The notes under the pieces were generated by a model. That model was not told the DNA's origin. It saw only the letters and a program-made list of their open reading frames with translations, and did no database searches. DNA of 62,627 nt from a virus (taxonomy: Duplodnaviria; Caudoviricetes). Both the position numbers and the translations under genes were made by a program. Below, in pieces: positions 1,840 to 8,832 of this stretch. Positions within the stretch are counted from its first letter, which is position 1; each line of letters begins with the position of its first letter. The stretch is from the IMG/VR virus record IMGVR_UViG_3300030620_000006, positions 1 to 62,627 of that record, one strand, 5' to 3'.

Positions 1840-2273
1840 GCCGCCTCCTCTCCGTAGCAGTCCGGCAGTCGAGCCCGGATCAGGTAGAGCGGACCCTTCC
1901 GCCACGCGGTGACGAACGGATCAGGCGTCAGCCCGTTGTGCCCCGGCCTCATCCTCCGGCAGCCCCTCTCCAGATAGCCGGTCACCAGGGTCTCGGCGTA
2001 GGAGCGCTGCCGCGTGACGTGGATCTCCTGTCCCCTGTGCTTGCACCGCAGCAGCTCCCAGGACGTCTTCGCGCAGAACGGGTCGCAGTAGACCTTGCGG
2101 GGATCGTTGGTCGCGAAGGACCGGCCGCAAAATCGGCACGATCGGCGGTTGGCCTCGGCCGTCCGGTCGCGCTTTCGACGCCACCACCAGATGCTGTAAC
2201 ACGCGTAGCACATGCCGCGCGCTCGATAGGGGCGGTCGGGGTGGCAAGAGGCGGGGCGGGTCACGAGGCGCAT
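1836..2273 (-). CDS. Zinc-finger hypothetical protein
   Basis: ARGMCYACY and CRFCGRSF...YCDPFC motifs. Confidence 0.6.
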   Translation of the reverse strand: MRLVTRPASCHPDRPYRARGMCYACYSIWWWRRKRDRTAEANRRSCRFCGRSFATNDPRKVYCDPFCAKTSWELLRCKHRGQEIHVTRQRSYAETLVTGYLERGCRRMRPGHNGLTPDPFVTAWRKGPLYLIRARLPDCYGEEAA

Positions 2274-4489
2274 GCCGTCTCCGCACAGAACAGACTCGCC
2301 TGCGGTCGCTCGGCCTCGGCCGCCCTGAGGTTCTTGCACGCTTGCTCGAAGTACGATCCTTTCAGCTCGATCCCGGCGAACAGTCGCCCTTGCTTGATCG
2401 CCTGGTAGCCGGTCGAGCCGATGCCGGCGAATGGGTCGAGCACCAGGTCGCCGGGGTTGCTCCATAGATCGATGGCGCGCTCGATCACGCCGAGCTGTAG
2501 CGGGCAGATGTGGCGCTCGTCATTCGCTTCCCGGGCGGCGCGATACTGCAAGGTGTTTCCCTGGTCGATGTCCATCCAGACCGGCGACGCCCACCTCTGC
2601 CAGCGCGCGACCGGGAAGTCCGCTGCCTCGTGGCCTACCGGTTCTGGGTTGTCGCCGGGCTTGCGCATCGTCACCAGGTAGTCCGGCAGCCCCATGCGCG
2701 AGCGGGTAGAGTCTTTCTTGACCTGCTTGTGAAGCAGGCCGAGTGCCTTGGTCCGCTGCATCTCGACCACGGGATCTTTCCAGATCACGACTTCCGAGTG
2801 ATGGATGAACCCGGCGTCCGCGAAGATGCGGATCAACTCGCCGCGAAAGTCACGCAGTCCGATCACTCCGTCTTTCCACTTCTGGAGCGGGAGATTCATG
2901 CAGTGGAAGCAGACGTGCCGTCCCGGCATCGTCACTCGGTACAGCTCGGCGACCAGGAACCGGAAGTGCTCCATGAACTCATCATCGCTGCGCACGTTGC
3001 CCATGTCTCGCTCGTTGGCCGAGTAGGTGTAGAGGCTGGCGAAGGGCGGCGAGAAGATTGACAATCCGACCGAATCCACGGCGATCGTCCGGGCAACCTC
3101 TACGGCGTCGCCGAGATGCATCGTCCAACCGTCGCCCGTCCGCTCCTCTGTCACGTAGTCCATGCTCTCCCTCCGCGCGGCCTCGTGTACGGCCGCGGTC
3201 TCGAAAACGCTCATGTGTTCGGCCACGGAGTCGGCCATCAGCCGCGCTCGCTCTTCCTTGGCGCGGACGTTCCGGAGCACCGGACCTTCCTGATCGGTGA
3301 GGATGAAATAGACATCGACCGGCTGAGTCTGCCCGAACCGCCATTCCCGGCGGGTCGCTTGATACAGCGCCTCGAAGCTGTCGGACAGGCCGACGAACAC
3401 CATCTTGCAGCAGTGCTGGAAGTTCAGCCCGTGGCCGCAGATCGACGGCTTGCTCACCAGGACCCTGTGCTCACCGCGAAGGAAGCCGAATAGTGCCGCT
3501 TCCTTCTGCTCGGTCGTGTCGGCTCCCTTTACCTCGACGGCGCCGCGGATTTCGGCGGCGAGCGCGGCGCTCTCGTCGTTCAGTTCGCACCAGACGATCC
3601 ACGGTTCGCTGCTGGCATTGGCGAGCGCCGCACATCGCGCCACGCGCTCGCTGAGCGACTGGCGGCGGACGGCGCGGCGCTCGTGCAACCCCCTAACCTC
3701 GACGGGGAAGAGGTATCCCGGGGCAGCGCCCGTTTCGATCATGATCTCGTGGCGGCGGAGCGCGGGCAGATCGTATCCTTCGTCGCTGAACCCGATATCG
3801 CTCGGTCTGCGGATGTATACCGACCACGAGGCCAGCCACCGCCAGAAGTCGATCTCGCCGTGCTTCTTCAAGCGCCACTTCGACGTATCTCCACCGTCGT
3901 GGTTGAAGAACGTCGCCAGCATCTCGACGCGATCCATGATGCCGAGGAATTCGGCGTGGTTGCCCAGCTCCATGTAGTCGTTCGGAGCGGGGGTCGCTGT
4001 GCAAGCAAGCCGGAACGGGGTTGCCGAAAATGCCTGGATGATTGCGTTGCGGGTCGCGCCGTCGTACGACTTGAGGATCGAGGATTCGTCGAGGATCACC
4101 CCGCCGAATGCCGCGGGGTCGATCTTGTGGAGGCGGTCGTAGTTGATGACGTTGACGCCGGGGCCGACGTCGTCTCGGCCGCTGATCCTGCGCACGTTGC
4201 GGATGCCGAACTTCTCGGCCTCGGCCACCGTCTGAAGCGAGACGGCCAGCGGCGCGAGCAAGAGCACGGGCGCATCCGCGTGCTCGGCGATCACCCTGCC
4301 CCATTCGAGCGACTGGATCGTCTTGCCCAAGCCGCAGTCCTCGAACAGCGCAGACCGGCAGCGCCGCAAGGCCCACTTCGTGACCGCCGCCTGCCACGGC
4401 ATGAGGCGGGGACTGAGGTCGAAGTCGCCGTTCAACCCCGCCGGCGGGGCGACGATGCGTTTTGAGGCAAGAAAGGATTCGTAGCTCAC
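2261..4489 (-). CDS. SNF2-like helicase fused to an amino (N4-C/N6-A) DNA methyltransferase
   Basis: GLGKT, DESS, TATP and RFGQ helicase motifs, then FSPPF and LDPFAGIGSTG in beta-class MTase order. Confidence 0.9.
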   Translation of the reverse strand: MSYESFLASKRIVAPPAGLNGDFDLSPRLMPWQAAVTKWALRRCRSALFEDCGLGKTIQSLEWGRVIAEHADAPVLLLAPLAVSLQTVAEAEKFGIRNVRRISGRDDVGPGVNVINYDRLHKIDPAAFGGVILDESSILKSYDGATRNAIIQAFSATPFRLACTATPAPNDYMELGNHAEFLGIMDRVEMLATFFNHDGGDTSKWRLKKHGEIDFWRWLASWSVYIRRPSDIGFSDEGYDLPALRRHEIMIETGAAPGYLFPVEVRGLHERRAVRRQSLSERVARCAALANASSEPWIVWCELNDESAALAAEIRGAVEVKGADTTEQKEAALFGFLRGEHRVLVSKPSICGHGLNFQHCCKMVFVGLSDSFEALYQATRREWRFGQTQPVDVYFILTDQEGPVLRNVRAKEERARLMADSVAEHMSVFETAAVHEAARRESMDYVTEERTGDGWTMHLGDAVEVARTIAVDSVGLSIFSPPFASLYTYSANERDMGNVRSDDEFMEHFRFLVAELYRVTMPGRHVCFHCMNLPLQKWKDGVIGLRDFRGELIRIFADAGFIHHSEVVIWKDPVVEMQRTKALGLLHKQVKKDSTRSRMGLPDYLVTMRKPGDNPEPVGHEAADFPVARWQRWASPVWMDIDQGNTLQYRAAREANDERHICPLQLGVIERAIDLWSNPGDLVLDPFAGIGSTGYQAIKQGRLFAGIELKGSYFEQACKNLRAAEAERPQASLFCAETACAS

Positions 4490-4680
4490 CGCTCCACCCT
4501 CCCCGCCACCCGGGCAATCCTCTCGACCAGCAGGGGAGGCGTGGAAACTGGAAAATCGCGGTCAGAAAATGACCTGCCTCTTAAAACTTGACGGGGCGGC
4601 GGGAAGTTGAAGACTCGCATGCCGTTTCCGAAGGCGAGCAGGCGGTCGAGGGCGTCGAGGTCGCGGAGGGGGTCAGTCAT
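4486..4680 (-). CDS. Possible small hypothetical protein
   Basis: Start and stop overlap both neighbours, but composition is atypical. Confidence 0.35.
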   Translation of the reverse strand: MTDPLRDLDALDRLLAFGNGMRVFNFPPPRQVLRGRSFSDRDFPVSTPPLLVERIARVAGRVER

Positions 4681-4943
4681 CTCAGGCTGACCGTCCTTTG
4701 CCCCGGACCCGGCCCGCTGCTGTAGCACCGGAACCCGTGCCGACGGAGGGCCGCCGAGAGCGCCATGAAGCACCCTGGGGGACCGCCCCCGGTTGCGTAG
4801 TTCCATGCTCGCGGGTACTCGGTCGGCGGGAAGACCTTGTGTGCCAGCGCGTCGTAGGTGAGCGATCCCCCAGCCTCCTCTAGGGCGTGCCTGATGCGCT
4901 CGGCGATCGGGAGGGCGGGGTAGGAGGGAAGGGGCTTCACCAC
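4677..4943 (-). CDS. Hypothetical protein (possible winged helix)
   Basis: IRHALEEAGGSLTYDALAHKVF; coupled to the downstream gene. Confidence 0.6.
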   Translation of the reverse strand: MVKPLPSYPALPIAERIRHALEEAGGSLTYDALAHKVFPPTEYPRAWNYATGGGPPGCFMALSAALRRHGFRCYSSGPGPGQRTVSLR

Positions 4944-4980
4944 GCCGGCGCCCCCGTCCTCTCCGCCGAGTGCTGCCAGG

Positions 4981-5703
4981 TCACGCCGCCGCCTCGATTC
5001 CGTAGAGCTTCCGCAAGGCCGCCGTCAGCCTCTTGAACGACCCCTCGACTTGCCGTAGGTGGCTACTGGTGATCTGTCCTGATTCGAGCAGGGCGGCGAG
5101 GCTCACCGCGTAGTGACTCGCGCGTACTGCCGGGGACTGCTGTTCACCGACTTCGACTCCGAAAACCTTCACCCGCTCGGCGCCCGCCCCTTGGTCTGCA
5201 AGCTCAGGTCTCCGCGCTTCACTGCGTTTTACAACGTGGCGTTGGTGTTTGTTGGCGGAGGCTCCGGGCTTCATAGCCGCCGCGGTCAGCCGAATTCCGC
5301 GCAGTCCGACGGTTGTAACAGAGAGAGCTGTCGCGATTCGATCAGGCTCAATCTTCATTCGCTCCGCGAGCATCAGGCACCGGGCGCGGTCGCGATGGCC
5401 GTAGCCACGGCCGTGTTTGGAGTTCGCTGCTACGGCATCGAGGAAGAGATCCTCTTGTGACTGGTAGTACTTTAGGATGACGGGCACGGCTGCGTCCGGC
5501 CCTCTGAGTTGGCGGAGCGCCTGGAGACGGTGCAGCCCGTCCACGACACGCTTTGTCGCGCCGTCCACGAGCAGCGGAGGAAGCTCTGCCCCCGACTTCA
5601 GAGCCTCGATCAGAGTTGCCACGTAGAGATCATCCGGATCTTCTCGTGGGTACAACTCGCCGAGCGGCTTGAGATTCTTCGCGGTGATGTATTCGACTTT
5701 CAT
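4981..5703 (-). CDS. ParB/Srx N-terminal domain protein
   Basis: LPPLLV...VVDGLHRLQAL and ANSKHGR motifs; ATG at 5703 after GAGG. The longer track ORF runs through the repeat array. Confidence 0.85.
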   Translation of the reverse strand: MKVEYITAKNLKPLGELYPREDPDDLYVATLIEALKSGAELPPLLVDGATKRVVDGLHRLQALRQLRGPDAAVPVILKYYQSQEDLFLDAVAANSKHGRGYGHRDRARCLMLAERMKIEPDRIATALSVTTVGLRGIRLTAAAMKPGASANKHQRHVVKRSEARRPELADQGAGAERVKVFGVEVGEQQSPAVRASHYAVSLAALLESGQITSSHLRQVEGSFKRLTAALRKLYGIEAAA

Positions 5704-5708
5704 AATCC

Positions 5709-5944
5709 TCGCCTCGACCTGCCTGGGCCAGCTATGCCAAGCACAGCCGCGCCGTGATCTGTTGGCCTCGCCTTGCCCTGCCCAACCCGGCATAGGCCTG
5801 CGCCGCCGAGCCTTGACGAGAGCGGATGGCCCTGCCTCGAACGGCCACGCTTCGACTCGGCCAGCATCGCCACGCCTCGTACGATGGCCTCGCCCTGACT
5901 TGCACAGCCCCGCCTCGGCGCGCCGTGCCATGCATGGCCACGCC
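5709..5944 (-). ncRNA. Pentamer-periodic (GGC-NN)n array in four blocks; putative guide-RNA locus
   Basis: 42 in-register pentamers: 25 begin GGY, 16 are one mismatch from GGC and 41 have C at position 3. Blocks are separated by 8-9 nt linkers after GGCCA. RNA status is inferred. Confidence 0.75.
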
Positions 5945-5948
5945 CGGG

Positions 5949-6503
5949 TTACTCTTTGACTTCAGCCTCGAACCTCCCGTAGATCCCGTCCCTTTCGATT
6001 CGGTAGTCGCCGACCCCGACGCGCATCCCAGCCTCGTTCAAAAGGCCGAGCACGACCACGCGATCGGCGACCTCAACGTCGATCATCAGCGGCAGATCGC
6101 ACGCCCACTTCCGGAGCATCGGGCGCGATCTGAGGATGCCCTGACGCTGCACGACCACCCGCTCGGTGTGAATCTCGAAACTCGTCAGGGGTTCATCGGT
6201 CTCCGGGTCGATCAGCGGGACGGTCTCGTTCTCCAGGAGCACGGCGCCGGCCACGATGGACTTCGCGGAGAACCGACCGATCCGCTTCCCCTTGGCGGCC
6301 GAAAGGATGGCTGCCCGGAAGGCCTTCGCCTTGATGTAGAGCTGGCCGTCAGGGAGGCGGTAGCTCCCCTGCTCGGCTTCTTCCTCCGGCGTCGGGATTT
6401 TCTTGCGACCGATGCCGCCCGGCTGGCGCATCAGCTTCTCGGGGTTGTGCTGGAGCAGCGGGGAAAGCCCGCTGACTCGATAGATCACCAGTTCAAATTG
6501 CAC
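5949..6503 (-). CDS. Stand-alone RAMP (Cas7-like RRM-fold) protein
   Basis: SGLSPLLQHN first strand, GQLYIKAKAFRAAILSAA, RSRPMLRKW, and a glycine-rich C-terminal loop AGMRVGVGDYR...GIYGRFE. Confidence 0.8.
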   Translation of the reverse strand: MQFELVIYRVSGLSPLLQHNPEKLMRQPGGIGRKKIPTPEEEAEQGSYRLPDGQLYIKAKAFRAAILSAAKGKRIGRFSAKSIVAGAVLLENETVPLIDPETDEPLTSFEIHTERVVVQRQGILRSRPMLRKWACDLPLMIDVEVADRVVVLGLLNEAGMRVGVGDYRIERDGIYGRFEAEVKE

Positions 6504-6539
6504 TCGTCACCCCTCTCCTCTCGTCAAGGGCTTGTTGGC

Positions 6540-8159
6540 TCACGCCGACCTCCCAACTTGCTCGATTGATTGGACTTCCTCGAAGGAGACGACCCGCCCG
6601 CCCCGCACCACCTGCACCGCGACCAGGCTCCGGTCACAATCCGAGCAGGTTGTGTCCAGACCCGGGCCACGGCGCAGTGATAGGTGCACATCGTCCACCC
6701 GCCACTTCGGAGACGACTTGAACCTGCCGAGCTTGCCCTTCGGCTGCTTGCCGGTCGCCGCGATCGTGACGTCCACACGCTCGACAAGCGATCTCAGAAT
6801 CCGCCGCCTCGCCGCCGCTCTGACAGGCTCTTCCAGGGCTGCTGCCGCCGCGTCGAGCGCCCGGTCCAGAGCCCCGCTGCGCGCCGCCTCCATCCGCCGG
6901 CGGGCCGAGCGGATCGTCTCCTCGAGGCGCTTGACCTGCCGGGCGGCTACGGCCCGCTGCTCCGCGAACTCGTCGCGGTCGATCTCGCCGTCCGCCCTCA
7001 TCGCGACCAGGCGGGCGAGCCGGGCGACCAGCTTGCCGCGCCGCCGCTCCATCGCCTCGATCTCGGCCGCCGGGTCGACCGCCGCGCCGGCGCGAGAACG
7101 CTCGACCAACTTCCGCACCGCGTCCGGGTGGCGCAGCAGCTCGGCGAAGCCCCGCCAGGTCAGATCGTCCACGGCCTGCCGCCGCACCCAGGCGCCGCCG
7201 CCGTCCCGGGGCCGGTAGTAGGAGCCGCCGTGGCTGCGGTCGATCACGACCCGCCGGCCGTCGACCCAGAGCAGGCCGGTCAGCATGCCCGGTAGGCCGG
7301 TCGAGGTGCCGCCGCGGTGGGCGCTGGCAGACTCCCAGGTCGCTGCGTCGATCAGAGGCTCGTGCGCTCCCTCGACCACGATGGCGTCCGGGTGGCTGGG
7401 ATCGAAGTGGAAGGCGCCGCGGTCGCCGTCTCGCCGCCACGCGCCGTTGATGATCGTGCCGAGGTAGACGGGGTTCCCGAGCACGCGCACCACCGCCGTC
7501 TTGCACCACCTACCGCCGCGAGAGGAGGGGATGCCCTCGGCATTCAGGCGCTCCGCGATGGCGCGCTGGCCGACGCCGGAGGCCGCCCACCGGAAGATGC
7601 GGCGCACGACGGCCGCCTCCTCGTCCACCACCTGCAACGTGCCGCGGAGCGGGTCGCCCGCCGGCGGGTTGTGGTAGCCGTAGGGCGCGGCGCCCCCAGT
7701 GACCTTGCCCTGACGCGCCTTCTCTCGCTTGCCCCTCTTGACCCGCTCCTTGAACCTCCGCACCTCGGCCGCGTCGACCAGTGAGACGATGCCGAAGGCG
7801 AGCCCGTCGGAGGCGTCGCCAAGGTCCCGTCGCGTGTTGTCCACCCACACCGCGATCTCCCGCTCGCGCAGCTCCCGCATGAGGAGCGCGACTTCCAGCT
7901 CGTCACCGCGGGTCAGACGGGATTGCTCGATACACCAGACGGCGTTCGCCCCGCCGGTGCGGATCGCGTCGAGCACCTGCTGCAGCACGTGGCGCTCACT
8001 GGCTGCGGCAGTGGCGGACTCAGTGCCCCTGAACTCGGCGACCGTCTGCCAGCCGTGCTGACCGGCCAGCTCGTGGTAGCGGCGGCGCTGGGCGTCGAGC
8101 GAGGCGCCGCGCTCCTCTTGGCGGTCGGTCGAGACGCGGTAGAGGGCGACTACTCGCAC
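6540..8159 (-). CDS. Large serine recombinase (integrase)
   Basis: YRVSTDRQ catalytic Ser, SRLTR, APYGY, NPVYLG, HEPLID and a coiled-coil C-terminus; GTG start at 8159 after GGAG. Confidence 0.92.
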   Translation of the reverse strand: MRVVALYRVSTDRQEERGASLDAQRRRYHELAGQHGWQTVAEFRGTESATAAASERHVLQQVLDAIRTGGANAVWCIEQSRLTRGDELEVALLMRELREREIAVWVDNTRRDLGDASDGLAFGIVSLVDAAEVRRFKERVKRGKREKARQGKVTGGAAPYGYHNPPAGDPLRGTLQVVDEEAAVVRRIFRWAASGVGQRAIAERLNAEGIPSSRGGRWCKTAVVRVLGNPVYLGTIINGAWRRDGDRGAFHFDPSHPDAIVVEGAHEPLIDAATWESASAHRGGTSTGLPGMLTGLLWVDGRRVVIDRSHGGSYYRPRDGGGAWVRRQAVDDLTWRGFAELLRHPDAVRKLVERSRAGAAVDPAAEIEAMERRRGKLVARLARLVAMRADGEIDRDEFAEQRAVAARQVKRLEETIRSARRRMEAARSGALDRALDAAAAALEEPVRAAARRRILRSLVERVDVTIAATGKQPKGKLGRFKSSPKWRVDDVHLSLRRGPGLDTTCSDCDRSLVAVQVVRGGRVVSFEEVQSIEQVGRSA

Positions 8160-8551
8160 TCGGGATCTCCGAGGAATGGGTAGGCGGCGAGCACGGACTC
8201 TGCGGCTCGCTGGGATGCGAGCGCGCGCAGCTTCCACCCGGTTTCGATGTCGGCGCGGCGGTCGTAGAGGTCCTCGGCGTCGGAGTCTACCGGTGACGTC
8301 GCCGCCGCCACCAGCTCCTTGAGCGGGCCGAGGTCTGGCGGCGGGGCGGCGAGGGCTTGCGCCGCCACTGCACGCGACTTGCGCGCCTCAGTGTGCACCC
8401 GGTGCGGCTCGCGGTCGACGACGCACTCGATAAACCAGAGCGCGCCTTTCGCCGCCGCCAGCGCCGCCCGCAGCCGCCCGACCTCCAGCGCGGCCAGCAG
8501 TTCGGTGCCCTCGGTCACCGCCTCACGCTCGATCTCTCGGGACGTTCTCAT
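8150..8551 (-). CDS. Hypothetical protein, paralog of 58048-58416
   Basis: Shares AALEVxRLRAAL, LxPLKELVAAA and VLAAYPxLG. Confidence 0.7.
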   Translation of the reverse strand: MRTSREIEREAVTEGTELLAALEVGRLRAALAAAKGALWFIECVVDREPHRVHTEARKSRAVAAQALAAPPPDLGPLKELVAAATSPVDSDAEDLYDRRADIETGWKLRALASQRAAESVLAAYPFLGDPECE

Positions 8552-8832
8552 GGCAGCTCCCCCGCCTCGACGAACGACCGCTTCGCCCCCAGCCGCCTTC
8601 TCACCATCGCGGCAGCGGACTTCCAGGCCTTCTTAGAGTCCTCGGAGTCGGCGTGCTCCGCCTTCCTGCTGAACTGGACAGCGAGGTTCTCCAGAAATAG
8701 GAGCTCGCTCCAGATGCTCAAAAGCATGACGTTGCGCGCCCAGTTGGAGATCGGAGCCGGACCACGCGCGCGGTCGATCTGCTCGCGCTCGGCCGGGGTG
8801 ACCCGAATCTGAATCCGCTCGGTTCTTTTCAT
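8548..8832 (-). CDS. Ribbon-helix-helix DNA-binding protein
   Basis: RTERIQIRVTPAEREQIDRA; TACAAT -10 box 7 nt before the ATG, with an inverted repeat just upstream (likely leaderless and autoregulated). Confidence 0.65.
   Translation of the reverse strand: MKRTERIQIRVTPAEREQIDRARGPAPISNWARNVMLLSIWSELLFLENLAVQFSRKAEHADSEDSKKAWKSAAAMVRRRLGAKRSFVEAGELP

What the first reader, a model, noticed from the sequence alone, without database searches (positions are those of the whole stretch)
5709..5944. The array parses into four guide-like units with a non-contiguous dinucleotide code
Seen (minus strand): block 1, 5944-5885, 12 pentamers, NN = GT CA AT AC GC GA GG TG AA AG GA CA, then linker TCGTACGA. 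Block 2, 5876-5827, 10 pentamers, GT GA TG GA GA GT CG GA AG CA, then linker TCCGCTCTC. Block 3, 5817-5763, 11 pentamers, AA TC GG AG TA CG TG AG AA GA CA, then linker ACAGATCAC. Block 4, 5753-5709, 9 pentamers, GC TG TT AT TG CA AG GA GA. Blocks 1-3 all end in GGCCA and the linkers break the register. The triplet is conserved while NN varies freely, unlike a decaying microsatellite, and period 5 is not explained by codons. Inference: GGCCA plus the linker marks processing boundaries, and each unit holds ~18-22 informative bases, about a spacer's worth, read contiguously or with a 1-nt gap per dinucleotide.
Basis: partly seen in the sequence, partly recalled or inferred. Interest (0 to 1): 0.88.

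Follow-up and report, generated by a model that had tools for sequence, protein, structure and literature searches.

The report
Phage VIPR guide-RNA array (GGCNN repeats)
The odd five-base repeat tract is the guide-RNA array of a VIPR system, a CRISPR-like RNA-guided DNA silencer of phages first described in 2026, so it is a real new example of a known kind of system.

Summary
On the minus strand, 5944..5709 holds 42 in-phase pentamers in four blocks of 12, 10, 11 and 9. Position 3 is C in 41 of 42.

The tract starts 4 nt after a 184-aa gene that is a Vipr homologue. A family profile matches the solved SUSP1 Vipr protein over its full length (E=2.5e-22), and the predicted fold is Cas7-like. 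All 13 related loci carry period-5 arrays on the vipr strand. In 11 of 13 a ParB-like gene sits beside vipr, as it does here.

This is therefore a VIPR locus (bioRxiv 10.64898/2026.04.26.720920). Vipr protomers hold each GGY, and the NN pairs read DNA with one skipped base.

Local differences: 8-9-nt linkers instead of a structured tail, only 25 of 42 exact GGY, and a ParB-like accessory gene. I found no natural target above chance. Processing and expression are untested.

This scan has already reported VIPR arrays, including ones with ParB-like partners, on other DNA.

The parts
5949..6503 (-). vipr gene, 184 aa (Cas7-like RAMP that binds the repeats, one protomer per unit)
   Evidence: phmmer hits the PDB chain 'SUSP1 Vipr protein' at E=5.9e-6. 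A profile of 23 homologues hits it at E=2.5e-22 over positions 1-182 vs 1-191. AlphaFold2 gives pLDDT 90.6. Top Foldseek PDB matches are Csm3 / type VII Cas7 at about 4e-6. The gene matches phrog_4652 and no Pfam family.
5709..5944 (-). vrRNA array: 42 GGCNN pentamers in four blocks
   Evidence: It begins 4 nt after the vipr stop codon. There is no Rfam match and no significant fold (z=-0.84).
5885..5944 (-). guide unit 1: 12 pentamers, NN = GT CA AT AC GC GA GG TG AA AG GA CA; followed by linker 5877-5884 (TCGTACGA)
   Evidence: A variant in run X2 differs at 5940 and 5921, both NN positions.
5827..5876 (-). guide unit 2: 10 pentamers, NN = GT GA TG GA GA GT CG GA AG CA; followed by linker 5818-5826 (TCCGCTCTC)
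   Evidence: This is the only guide with 20/20 one-skip matches elsewhere, in a C5 DNA methyltransferase gene family. That is not above chance.
5763..5817 (-). guide unit 3: 11 pentamers, NN = AA TC GG AG TA CG TG AG AA GA CA; followed by linker 5754-5762 (ACAGATCAC)
5709..5753 (-). guide unit 4: 9 pentamers, NN = GC TG TT AT TG CA AG GA GA; its last unit runs into the GAGG ribosome-binding site of the next gene
4981..5703 (-). ParB/Srx-fold accessory gene, 240 aa (candidate vap)
   Evidence: A homologue lies next to vipr in 11 of 13 related loci. A profile of 11 homologues hits ParB structures (7o0n, E=4.3e-5, positions 5-128). Weak phrog_1033 match. Invariant motifs YPR, LPP and DGxHR.
4980..6537 (.). 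the whole cassette (accessory gene + array + vipr), possibly a unit of gain or loss
   Evidence: In run X1 one contig spans exactly 4950-6567, and another is reported to join 4979 to 6538 (weak: side 30, same sample as the possible source). Cassette G+C is 0.638 against 0.695 for the window. TCACGCCG occurs at both borders, 4981 and 6540.

Best explanation
The tract is the vrRNA (guide-RNA) array of a phage-borne VIPR system.

Shown here:
- The gene immediately upstream encodes a Vipr-family RAMP protein that keeps the residues which read G1, G2 and Y3 in the solved SUSP1 complex.
- Homologous genes in 13 other viral or MAG loci are all followed or flanked, on the same strand, by period-5 GGY/NN-type arrays.
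- The phage itself carries no site matching its guides.

Taken from the literature on the family:
- Vipr protomers polymerise along the RNA, one per pentamer.
- Two neighbouring protomers hold each GGY away from pairing and present the NN dinucleotides.
- The NN pairs bind double-stranded DNA with every third target base skipped (NNx), forming an R-loop triplex that represses transcription of rival phages, satellites or prophages.

Inferred for this locus:
- The array is co-transcribed with vipr and the ParB-like gene.
- It yields four guides of about 53-69 nt, bounded by the conserved GGCRR-GGCCA end plus an 8-9-nt linker.
- The last two units are a constant 3' end rather than guide.
- The ParB/Srx-fold protein is the accessory (vap) factor acting on the bound DNA.
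For: Array anatomy:
- 42 in-phase units with Y at position 3 in 42 of 42.
- It is unique in the window.

Vipr membership:
- SUSP1 Vipr is the only significant PDB hit: E=5.9e-6 for the single sequence and E=2.5e-22 over the full length for the profile.
- The model is confident (pLDDT 90.6). The best fold matches are Cas7-family subunits (8z4j_J 3.7e-6, 9g9g_D, 6ifn_F).
- SUSP1 residues H17, R138, D177, W178 and R179 are named as the GGY contacts. In the alignments they align with H19, R127, D166, Y167 and R168 here. R127, D166 and R168 are invariant in 23 homologues.

Related loci:
- A strict detector finds GGY arrays only on the vipr strand. In 10 of 13 loci they start 14-34 nt after the end of the vipr match, and none lie on the opposite strand.
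- A looser detector adds L013 (degenerate G1) and L005 (NGT/NN). L010 has one array 830 nt downstream. All 13 of 13 therefore carry an array.
- Mycobacterium phage Brocalys, a named phage with a homologue, has three arrays just upstream of it.

Other support:
- No self-target: the best one-skip self-matches are 16/24, 14/20, 14/22 and 12/18, all within 200 order-shuffles. The paper likewise found no self-targeting.
- The tract has no RNA fold of its own (z=-0.84), as expected for a protein-held repeat tract.
- In run X2, from a different study, a 98-99% identical copy shows 2 differences inside the covered array parts. Both fall on NN positions and none on GGC.
Against: - No RNA, processing or binding data exist for this locus.
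- Only 25 of 42 units are exact GGY, against 0.77-0.98 in most relatives. In SUSP1, perturbing GGY abolished silencing, so some or all guides could be impaired.
- There is no structured, invariant 3' tail like the pseudoknot of type II vrRNAs. Linkers are 8-9 nt.
- No natural target was found above chance, and the guides do not converge on one element.
- The VIPR type and the identity of the accessory gene among vap1-6 could not be checked, because the papers' figures and supplements are not held.
Confidence: 0.86

Rival explanations
1. A decaying, no longer functional vrRNA array: a VIPR cassette whose guides have drifted so far from GGY that Vipr no longer assembles on them.
For: 17 of 42 units lack G1 or G2. 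Exact-GGY share is 0.56-0.67 per block for the three blocks the detector scored, and 5 of 10 in block 2, against 0.77-0.98 in most relatives. GGY perturbation abolished silencing in SUSP1. No target was found. The cassette may be absent from co-occurring variants (weak).
Against: The 19 departures from GGC are not spread evenly: 9 at G1, 9 at G2, and only 1 at position 3, which is still a pyrimidine. By my arithmetic, at most 1 of 19 falling on one of three equal positions has P of about 0.005, so constraint persists. Only 1 unit lacks both Gs. vipr is intact with its contact residues. The paper notes frequent internal degeneracy and types with NNNGG, YNNNG or NNNNG repeats. Relatives L013 and L005 are as degenerate or more so, in one position each. 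The two X2 differences fall on NN positions, not on GGC.
Confidence: 0.1
2. The repeats act as DNA. They would be a centromere- or operator-like platform of phased GGC sites bound by the neighbouring ParB-like protein, not a guide RNA.
For: A ParB-fold gene follows the array here and lies beside vipr in 11 of 13 relatives. ParB proteins bind repeated DNA sites (general knowledge).
Against: Arrays always lie on the vipr strand, which a duplex DNA site need not do. Arrays accompany vipr where no ParB-like gene was found: L004 and L009, and the Brocalys stretch, where none is annotated. The ParB-like protein has no tblastn match in 50,697 phage records, while Vipr matches 156 of them. In SUSP1 the same kind of repeat is an RNA that co-purifies with Vipr.
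Confidence: 0.03
3. It is not a functional element: a microsatellite-like GC-rich tract, or the translated N-terminal extension of the ParB-like gene (the 316-aa frame 4981..5931).
For: An open frame does run through the tract.
Against: Period 5 with register shifts is incompatible with codons. Homologues of the ParB-like protein align from its ATG at 5703 and share nothing upstream. Only 3 of 5 positions are constrained. The same architecture recurs next to vipr in 13 loci of unrelated sequence.
Confidence: 0.01

Closest known systems
VIPR systems, type II exemplars: Escherichia phage SUSP1 and the Pseudomonas fulva prophage (bioRxiv 10.64898/2026.04.26.720920, .720927, 10.64898/2026.10.15.759431)
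   Same: Both have a small Cas7-like Vipr protein with the same GGY-contact residues, tandem GGY/NN pentamers (9-16 per guide there, 9-12 here), several guides in an array beside vipr, one accessory gene, a phage-borne location and no self-target.
   Different: Protein identity to SUSP1 Vipr is low; the single-sequence match is E=5.9e-6 over residues 58-182. There is no roughly 40-60-nt invariant tail or pseudoknot: guides are separated by 8-9 nt. GGY is degenerate at G1 or G2 in 17 of 42 units. The accessory gene is ParB/Srx-like and has no tblastn match in 50,697 phage records, a collection in which Vipr matches 77 records whose names begin 'Escherichia'. It is thus probably not vap1.
Other VIPR types (I, III-VII), including 'staggered' arrays in which one vrRNA ends where the next begins (legend of fig. 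S18, seen)
   Same: Compact arrays without long tails, variant repeat consensus, and accessory genes predicted to act on DNA.
   Different: I could not assign a type. The figures and supplementary tables that define types and vap1-6 are not held. There are no hammerhead ribozymes between units (no Rfam match).
Class 1 CRISPR Cas7 backbone (Csm3, type VII Cas7)
   Same: RRM/RAMP fold with G-loop and thumb (best fold matches). One subunit per fixed step of guide RNA, with periodically unpaired bases.
   Different: The window has no tandem array of CRISPR-like period. Step is 5 nt with 3 bases withheld, rather than 6 with 1. The guide content is interleaved with the repeat rather than sitting in a contiguous spacer.
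ParB / KorB family (ParB N-terminal domain plus helix-turn-helix)
   Same: The accessory protein's first ~128 residues match ParB structures by profile (7o0n E=4.3e-5, 7bnr, 7bnk, 6sdk).
   Different: The motif at the usual GxxR nucleotide-binding box is DGxHR. Pfam ParB_N is reached by only 2 of 11 homologues, best E=8.5e-4. No parA or parS is evident. Function is untested.

Membership tests
VIPR system | A Vipr protein: small RAMP homologous to the characterised Vipr proteins | tested here: met
   PDB 'SUSP1 Vipr protein' at E=5.9e-6. Profile E=2.5e-22 over the full length. Cas7-like predicted fold, pLDDT 90.6.
VIPR system | Residues that read G1, G2 and Y3 (SUSP1 H17, R138, D177, W178, R179) | tested here: met
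   They align with H19, R127, D166, Y167 (aromatic for Trp) and R168. R127, D166 and R168 are invariant in 23 homologues.
VIPR system | Tandem GGY/NN (YNNGG) pentamers next to vipr; the paper's search criterion is at least 4 units, typically 9-16 per vrRNA | tested here: met
   Four blocks of 12, 10, 11 and 9 units starting 4 nt after vipr. Only 25 of 42 units are exact GGY; Y3 is present in 42 of 42.
VIPR system | Fixed triplet conserved while NN is hypervariable between related loci | tested here: inconclusive
   Within the array NN is mixed. The only near-identical copy (run X2) differs at 2 array positions, both NN. By my arithmetic, P is about 0.16 by chance. L007 and L012 are identical and uninformative.
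VIPR system | An invariant, structured 3' tail after each repeat tract (described for type II) | tested here: not met
   Linkers are 8-9 nt and differ from each other. The tract folds no better than shuffles (z=-0.84). The papers say other types have other architectures, so this argues against type II rather than against VIPR.
VIPR system | A conserved accessory (vap) gene in the locus | tested here: met
   A ParB-like gene lies beside vipr in 11 of 13 related loci and here. Whether it is one of vap1-6 could not be tested, since supplements and figures are not held.
VIPR system | vrRNAs are expressed, processed and bound by Vipr | not testable with these tools
   The four runs listed as holding the stretch are all on record as DNA(?), none as RNA.
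VIPR system | Natural targets under the 1-nt-skip rule (at least 80% NN match) in rival mobile elements | tested here: inconclusive
   Exact-seed scans of IMG/VR and JGI metagenomes gave hit numbers and extensions near chance. Guide 2 reaches 20/20 in one methyltransferase gene family and guide 1 reaches 21/24 in one phage, with no convergence of the other guides. The host is unknown and mismatch-tolerant searches of large collections were not possible.
VIPR system | No self-targeting by the locus's own guides | tested here: met
   The best one-skip matches in the 62.6-kb genome lie within the shuffled distributions.
CRISPR-Cas | Repeat-spacer array with contiguous spacers | tested here: not met
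   No tandem array of CRISPR-like period appears in the window (longest period listed is 27). I made no cas-gene search of the window; the 184-aa gene is the only RAMP I examined.
ParB-parS partition system | ParB with a cognate parS centromere and usually a ParA partner | tested here: inconclusive
   A ParB-fold N-terminal domain is present. No parA was seen beside it (ORFs of 3500-8500; six of them scanned). The strand-locked association of arrays with vipr argues against a parS role.

The most novel reading that the evidence does not exclude
This soil-phage clade may be a distinct VIPR type in three respects.
- A ParB/Srx-fold accessory protein may turn RNA-guided binding into ParB/KorB-like clamping or spreading over the target, or into cleavage.
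- Its guides may lack any structured tail and be cut at a short GGCRR-GGCCA-plus-linker boundary, tolerating NGC or GNC units.
- The whole 1.56-kb cassette may move as a unit between closely related phages at a hot spot beside the integrase gene.
Probability: 0.2. Interest if true: 0.6.

Novelty: new member of a known kind. Interest (0 to 1): 0.33.

Why it matters
The locus adds a complete, compact VIPR system from a 62.6-kb high-G+C soil virus to a family known experimentally from only a few E. coli and Pseudomonas elements.

It has three features useful for working out how the family varies:
- guides separated by only 8-9 nt, with no tail;
- tolerance, or decay, of the two G positions while the pyrimidine is kept;
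- a ParB-fold partner conserved across relatives found in Rubrobacteraceae, Pyrinomonadaceae and Burkholderiales MAGs.

It also shows that a tool-less reading of raw sequence recovered the gapped-code idea. It does not open a new question: the mechanism is in print.

Tried and rejected
**RNA families and signals**
- Rfam at E up to 10 over 4500-7000 gave nothing on the array.
- The sigma-70 promoter scan of 4400-8700 found 0 sites. It found 2 terminator-like sites, both on the other strand and at the chance level.

**My first idea**
- Before the literature lead I thought of a TRAP-like or ParB/TerS-like multi-site platform (recalled knowledge, stated). I dropped it once the Vipr match was found.

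**Target search, 1-nt-skip patterns**
- Self-scan: nothing above shuffles under skip 0, 1 or 2. Skip 3 finds only the array itself.
- IMG/VR exact seeds, guide 1:
  - Units 1-10 gave 0 hits.
  - Units 1-8 gave 9 hits.
  - Units 3-10 gave 17 hits.
  - The best full score was 21/24 in L099, at the start of a ParB_N-type frame of a 0.66-G+C phage. My estimate is that 0.5-1 such extension is expected by chance. The other guides do not match that 46-kb record.
- IMG/VR exact seeds, guide 2 (units 1-8): 39 hits.
  - L022 and L027 are homologous and reach 20/20, in frame over VDWEEVRDSQ of a C5 DNA methyltransferase.
  - Expected by chance is about 39 x (1/4)^4 = 0.15 (my arithmetic).
  - Guides 1, 3 and 4 do not match those two complete records. 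Their G+C is 0.56-0.59 against 0.695 here.
- IMG/VR exact seeds, guide 3 (units 1-8): 19 hits, best 20/22.
- IMG/VR exact seeds, guide 4 (units 1-8): 6 hits, one of them 18/18. Expected is about 0.4.
- JGI metagenomes:
  - Guide 1 (10 units) gave 0 hits.
  - Guide 2 (10 units) gave 2 hits, one in the same methyltransferase family and one unrelated.
- None of this exceeds chance. No skip-0, -2 or -3 controls or shuffled controls could be run on the big collections, because scans are capped.

**Host**
- The large-terminase search named only distant phages.
- The protein atlas gave 'Viruses'.
- A CRISPR-like repeat seen in run X3 gave 0 matches in the four MAGs holding relatives. It gave one lone 3-mismatch site in 401 genomes of the phylum of G003. 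The host remains unknown.

**Binding of Vipr to the ParB-like protein**
- The complex-prediction job returned no verdict.

**Expression**
- No RNA holder is listed for the stretch.
- Parts of the stretch without contig cover in runs X3 and X4 are not used.

**Type assignment**
- 'ParB' does not occur in the main text of 10.64898/2026.04.26.720920 or of 10.64898/2026.10.15.759431.
- No paper in the library holds both 'vrRNA' and 'ParB'.
- Figures and supplements that define types I-VII and vap1-6 are not held, so the clade may already be listed there.

Full report
**The observation**

On the minus strand, 5944..5709 reads as 42 pentamers in four in-phase blocks of 12, 10, 11 and 9 units. The blocks are separated by TCGTACGA, TCCGCTCTC and ACAGATCAC.

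Position 3 is C in 41 units and T in one. Positions 1 and 2 are each G in 33. Positions 4 and 5 are mixed. Only 25 units are exact GGY, so the 'conserved triplet' is really an invariant pyrimidine preceded by at least one G in 41 of 42 units.

The signal is unique in the window and exceeds Markov simulations. The tract lies in the 245-nt gap between two minus-strand genes. It begins 4 nt after the stop of a 184-aa gene, and its last unit supplies the GAGG before the ATG of a 240-aa gene.

**The neighbouring protein**

- The 184-aa protein has no Pfam family and matches phrog_4652, of unknown function.
- Against all PDB chains its only significant match is 'SUSP1 Vipr protein' (E=5.9e-6).
- A profile of 23 homologues from the 5.8-billion-protein collection matches that chain end to end at E=2.5e-22.
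- The AlphaFold2 model is confident (pLDDT 90.6). Its best structural neighbours are Cas7-family subunits of type III and type VII CRISPR complexes.
- In SUSP1 the cryo-EM paper names H17 and D177 as contacts of G1, R138 and W178 as contacts of G2, and R179 as a contact of Y3 (10.64898/2026.04.26.720927, first part of Results read).
- In the alignments these fall on H19, D166, R127, Y167 and R168 here. R127, D166 and R168 are invariant in the family alignment.

**What the family is**

A note from earlier in this scan pointed me to the VIPR preprints, which I then read.

- 10.64898/2026.04.26.720920 (Results and methods sections 18, 20, 26 and 27 read) describes phage-borne Vipr proteins and vrRNAs made of 9-16 GGY/NN repeats. 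The NN dinucleotides alone specify a DNA target in which every third base is skipped. This was shown by pangenome matching, competitive binding, GFP repression and reprogramming.
- In the same paper, natural targets are rival satellites and prophages, and no guide hit its own contig.
- The cryo-EM paper shows one protomer per repeat and an R-loop triplex.
- 10.64898/2026.10.15.759431 (abstract and passages) shows that the system protects SUSP1 from a satellite and needs both vipr and vap1.
- A fourth preprint, 10.64898/2026.10.21.760802 (passages), recovers 99 period-5 clusters next to Vipr-like folds, some with non-canonical triplets.

**Relatives**

The collections gave nine IMG/VR loci and four MAG loci. 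The MAGs are one Rubrobacteraceae, two Pyrinomonadaceae and one Burkholderiales. They encode homologues at 35-44% identity. L007 and L012 carry identical arrays.

- A strict detector finds GGY arrays only on the vipr strand. In 10 of 13 loci they start 14-34 nt after the end of the protein match. L003 alone has about 17. None lie on the other strand.
- A looser detector adds L013 ([G/C]GC units) and L005 (NGT units). L010 has one array after its ParB-like gene. All 13 therefore carry an array.
- Mycobacterium phage Brocalys, one of 156 phage records with a homologue, has three clean arrays just upstream of the gene.
- Many relatives' arrays end in GGCRA-GGCRR-GG followed by a T-rich spacer.
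- Here blocks 1-3 end GGCGA/GGCAG-GGCCA and block 4 ends GGCGA-GG. I therefore take the last two units as a constant 3' end.

**How this locus differs from type II**

- There is no long invariant tail. The whole tract folds no better than shuffles (z=-0.84).
- There is no ribozyme.
- Guides abut with 8-9-nt linkers. This is closest to the abutting 'staggered' arrays mentioned in the paper, whose legend only I saw.
- Exact-GGY share is 0.56-0.67 per block for blocks 1, 3 and 4, and 5 of 10 in block 2. Most relatives have 0.77-0.98.
- The departures avoid position 3 (9, 9 and 1 changes; my estimate is P about 0.005). This argues for persisting constraint rather than free decay.

**The accessory gene**

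- The 240-aa protein has homologues beside vipr in 11 of 13 loci. They lie downstream after one or two guides in most, and upstream in L001 and L005. None was found in L004 or L009.
- A profile of 11 homologues matches ParB structures over its first ~128 positions (7o0n, E=4.3e-5).
- Invariant motifs are YPR, LPP and DGxHR.
- It has no tblastn match in 50,697 phage records, so it is probably not the vap1 of SUSP1-like phages.
- 'ParB' does not occur in the main text of two of the VIPR preprints. No paper in the library holds both 'vrRNA' and 'ParB'.
- Earlier notes of this scan report ParB-like partners of VIPR in other genomes.
- Its role is inferred only: DNA clamp, spreader or nuclease.

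**Targets**

The window is the whole record, a 62,627-base virus. No site in it matches a guide beyond shuffles.

Exact-seed scans of IMG/VR and of JGI metagenomes gave hit counts of the order expected by chance.

- Guide 2 reaches 20/20, in frame with the skipped base at the wobble position, in one C5 DNA methyltransferase family (L022, L027, L085).
- Guide 1 reaches 21/24 at the start of a ParB_N-type frame in a 0.66-G+C phage (L099).
- Guide 4 reaches 18/18 once.
- By my arithmetic, 0.15, 0.5-1 and 0.4 such events are expected respectively.
- The other guides do not converge on any of the three full records I scanned.

These are candidates, not findings. The host is unknown.

**Population data**

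All runs are contigs, so these are hints only.

- A run from another study (X2) holds a 98-99% identical cassette. Its only two differences within the covered array parts are at NN positions (5940, N5 of unit 1; 5921, N4 of unit 5).
- In X1, which may be the source sample, one contig spans exactly 4950-6567. Another is reported to join 4979 to 6538, skipping vipr, the array and the ParB-like gene.
- Contigs in all four runs break at 4970-4979 and 6538-6539.
- The cassette is lower in G+C (0.638 against 0.695; GC3 of the ParB-like gene 0.69 against 0.85-0.88 in its neighbours). TCACGCCG occurs at both borders.

**Verdict**

The kind is already described. The instance is new and has a few variant features whose meaning needs RNA and reporter experiments.

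Noticed in passing
window 6539-6569: In run X3 (same sample as the possible source) an 88-nt contig carries these 31 bases, with 1 mismatch, flanked on both sides by the same ~27-nt repeat with a palindromic CCCCGCG...CGCGGGG core. It looks like a CRISPR repeat-spacer-repeat, meaning a host spacer against the 3' end of this phage's serine recombinase gene.
   Followed up: partly
window 4979/4980 and 6537/6538: The VIPR cassette may be an insertion/deletion polymorphism. Contig break points fall at both borders in four runs. One X1 contig is reported to join 4979 to 6538. TCACGCCG sits at both borders, covering the stop codons of the ParB-like and recombinase genes. Cassette G+C is lower than the window's.
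   Followed up: partly
L022:6923-6951, L027:792-820, L085:12470-12498: Guide 2 matches 20/20 under the one-skip rule, in frame, the codons for VDWEEVRDSQ just upstream of the PCQ motif of a phage C5 DNA methyltransferase family. The wobble bases differ between copies. This is near the chance level, so it is only a candidate target.
   Followed up: partly
L099:697-731: Guide 1 matches 21/24 (21/22 over its first 11 units) at the 5' end of a frame encoding a ParB_N-type protein in a 0.66-G+C viral contig. On that frame the skipped bases fall on wobble positions. Other guides do not hit the record.
   Followed up: partly
L005:3297-3501 and 4096-4228: A relative's arrays use NGT/NN units: G2 and T3 are fixed and G1 is free. 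The last block is in a shifted GTT register. This is an example of the non-canonical repeat consensus mentioned in the VIPR papers.
   Followed up: no
L003:5571-7694: One IMG/VR relative carries about 17 consecutive guides over 2 kb downstream of vipr and its ParB-like gene. Most end in GGCGA-GGCGA-GGTTT or GGCRA-GGCGA-GGGTTT.
   Followed up: no
L014 (Mycobacterium phage Brocalys) 2129-2305: Three clean GGY/NN arrays lie directly upstream of the Vipr-homologous part of annotated gene 45. The annotated CDS start (locus 2318) lies about 180 nt before the homologous region, so the annotated N-terminus may be over-extended.
   Followed up: no
window 2261-4489: A 742-aa fusion of an SNF2-type helicase with an N6/N4 DNA methyltransferase lies downstream on the same strand, separated from the cassette by small ORFs. 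A homologue lies upstream of vipr in L006 only.
   Followed up: no
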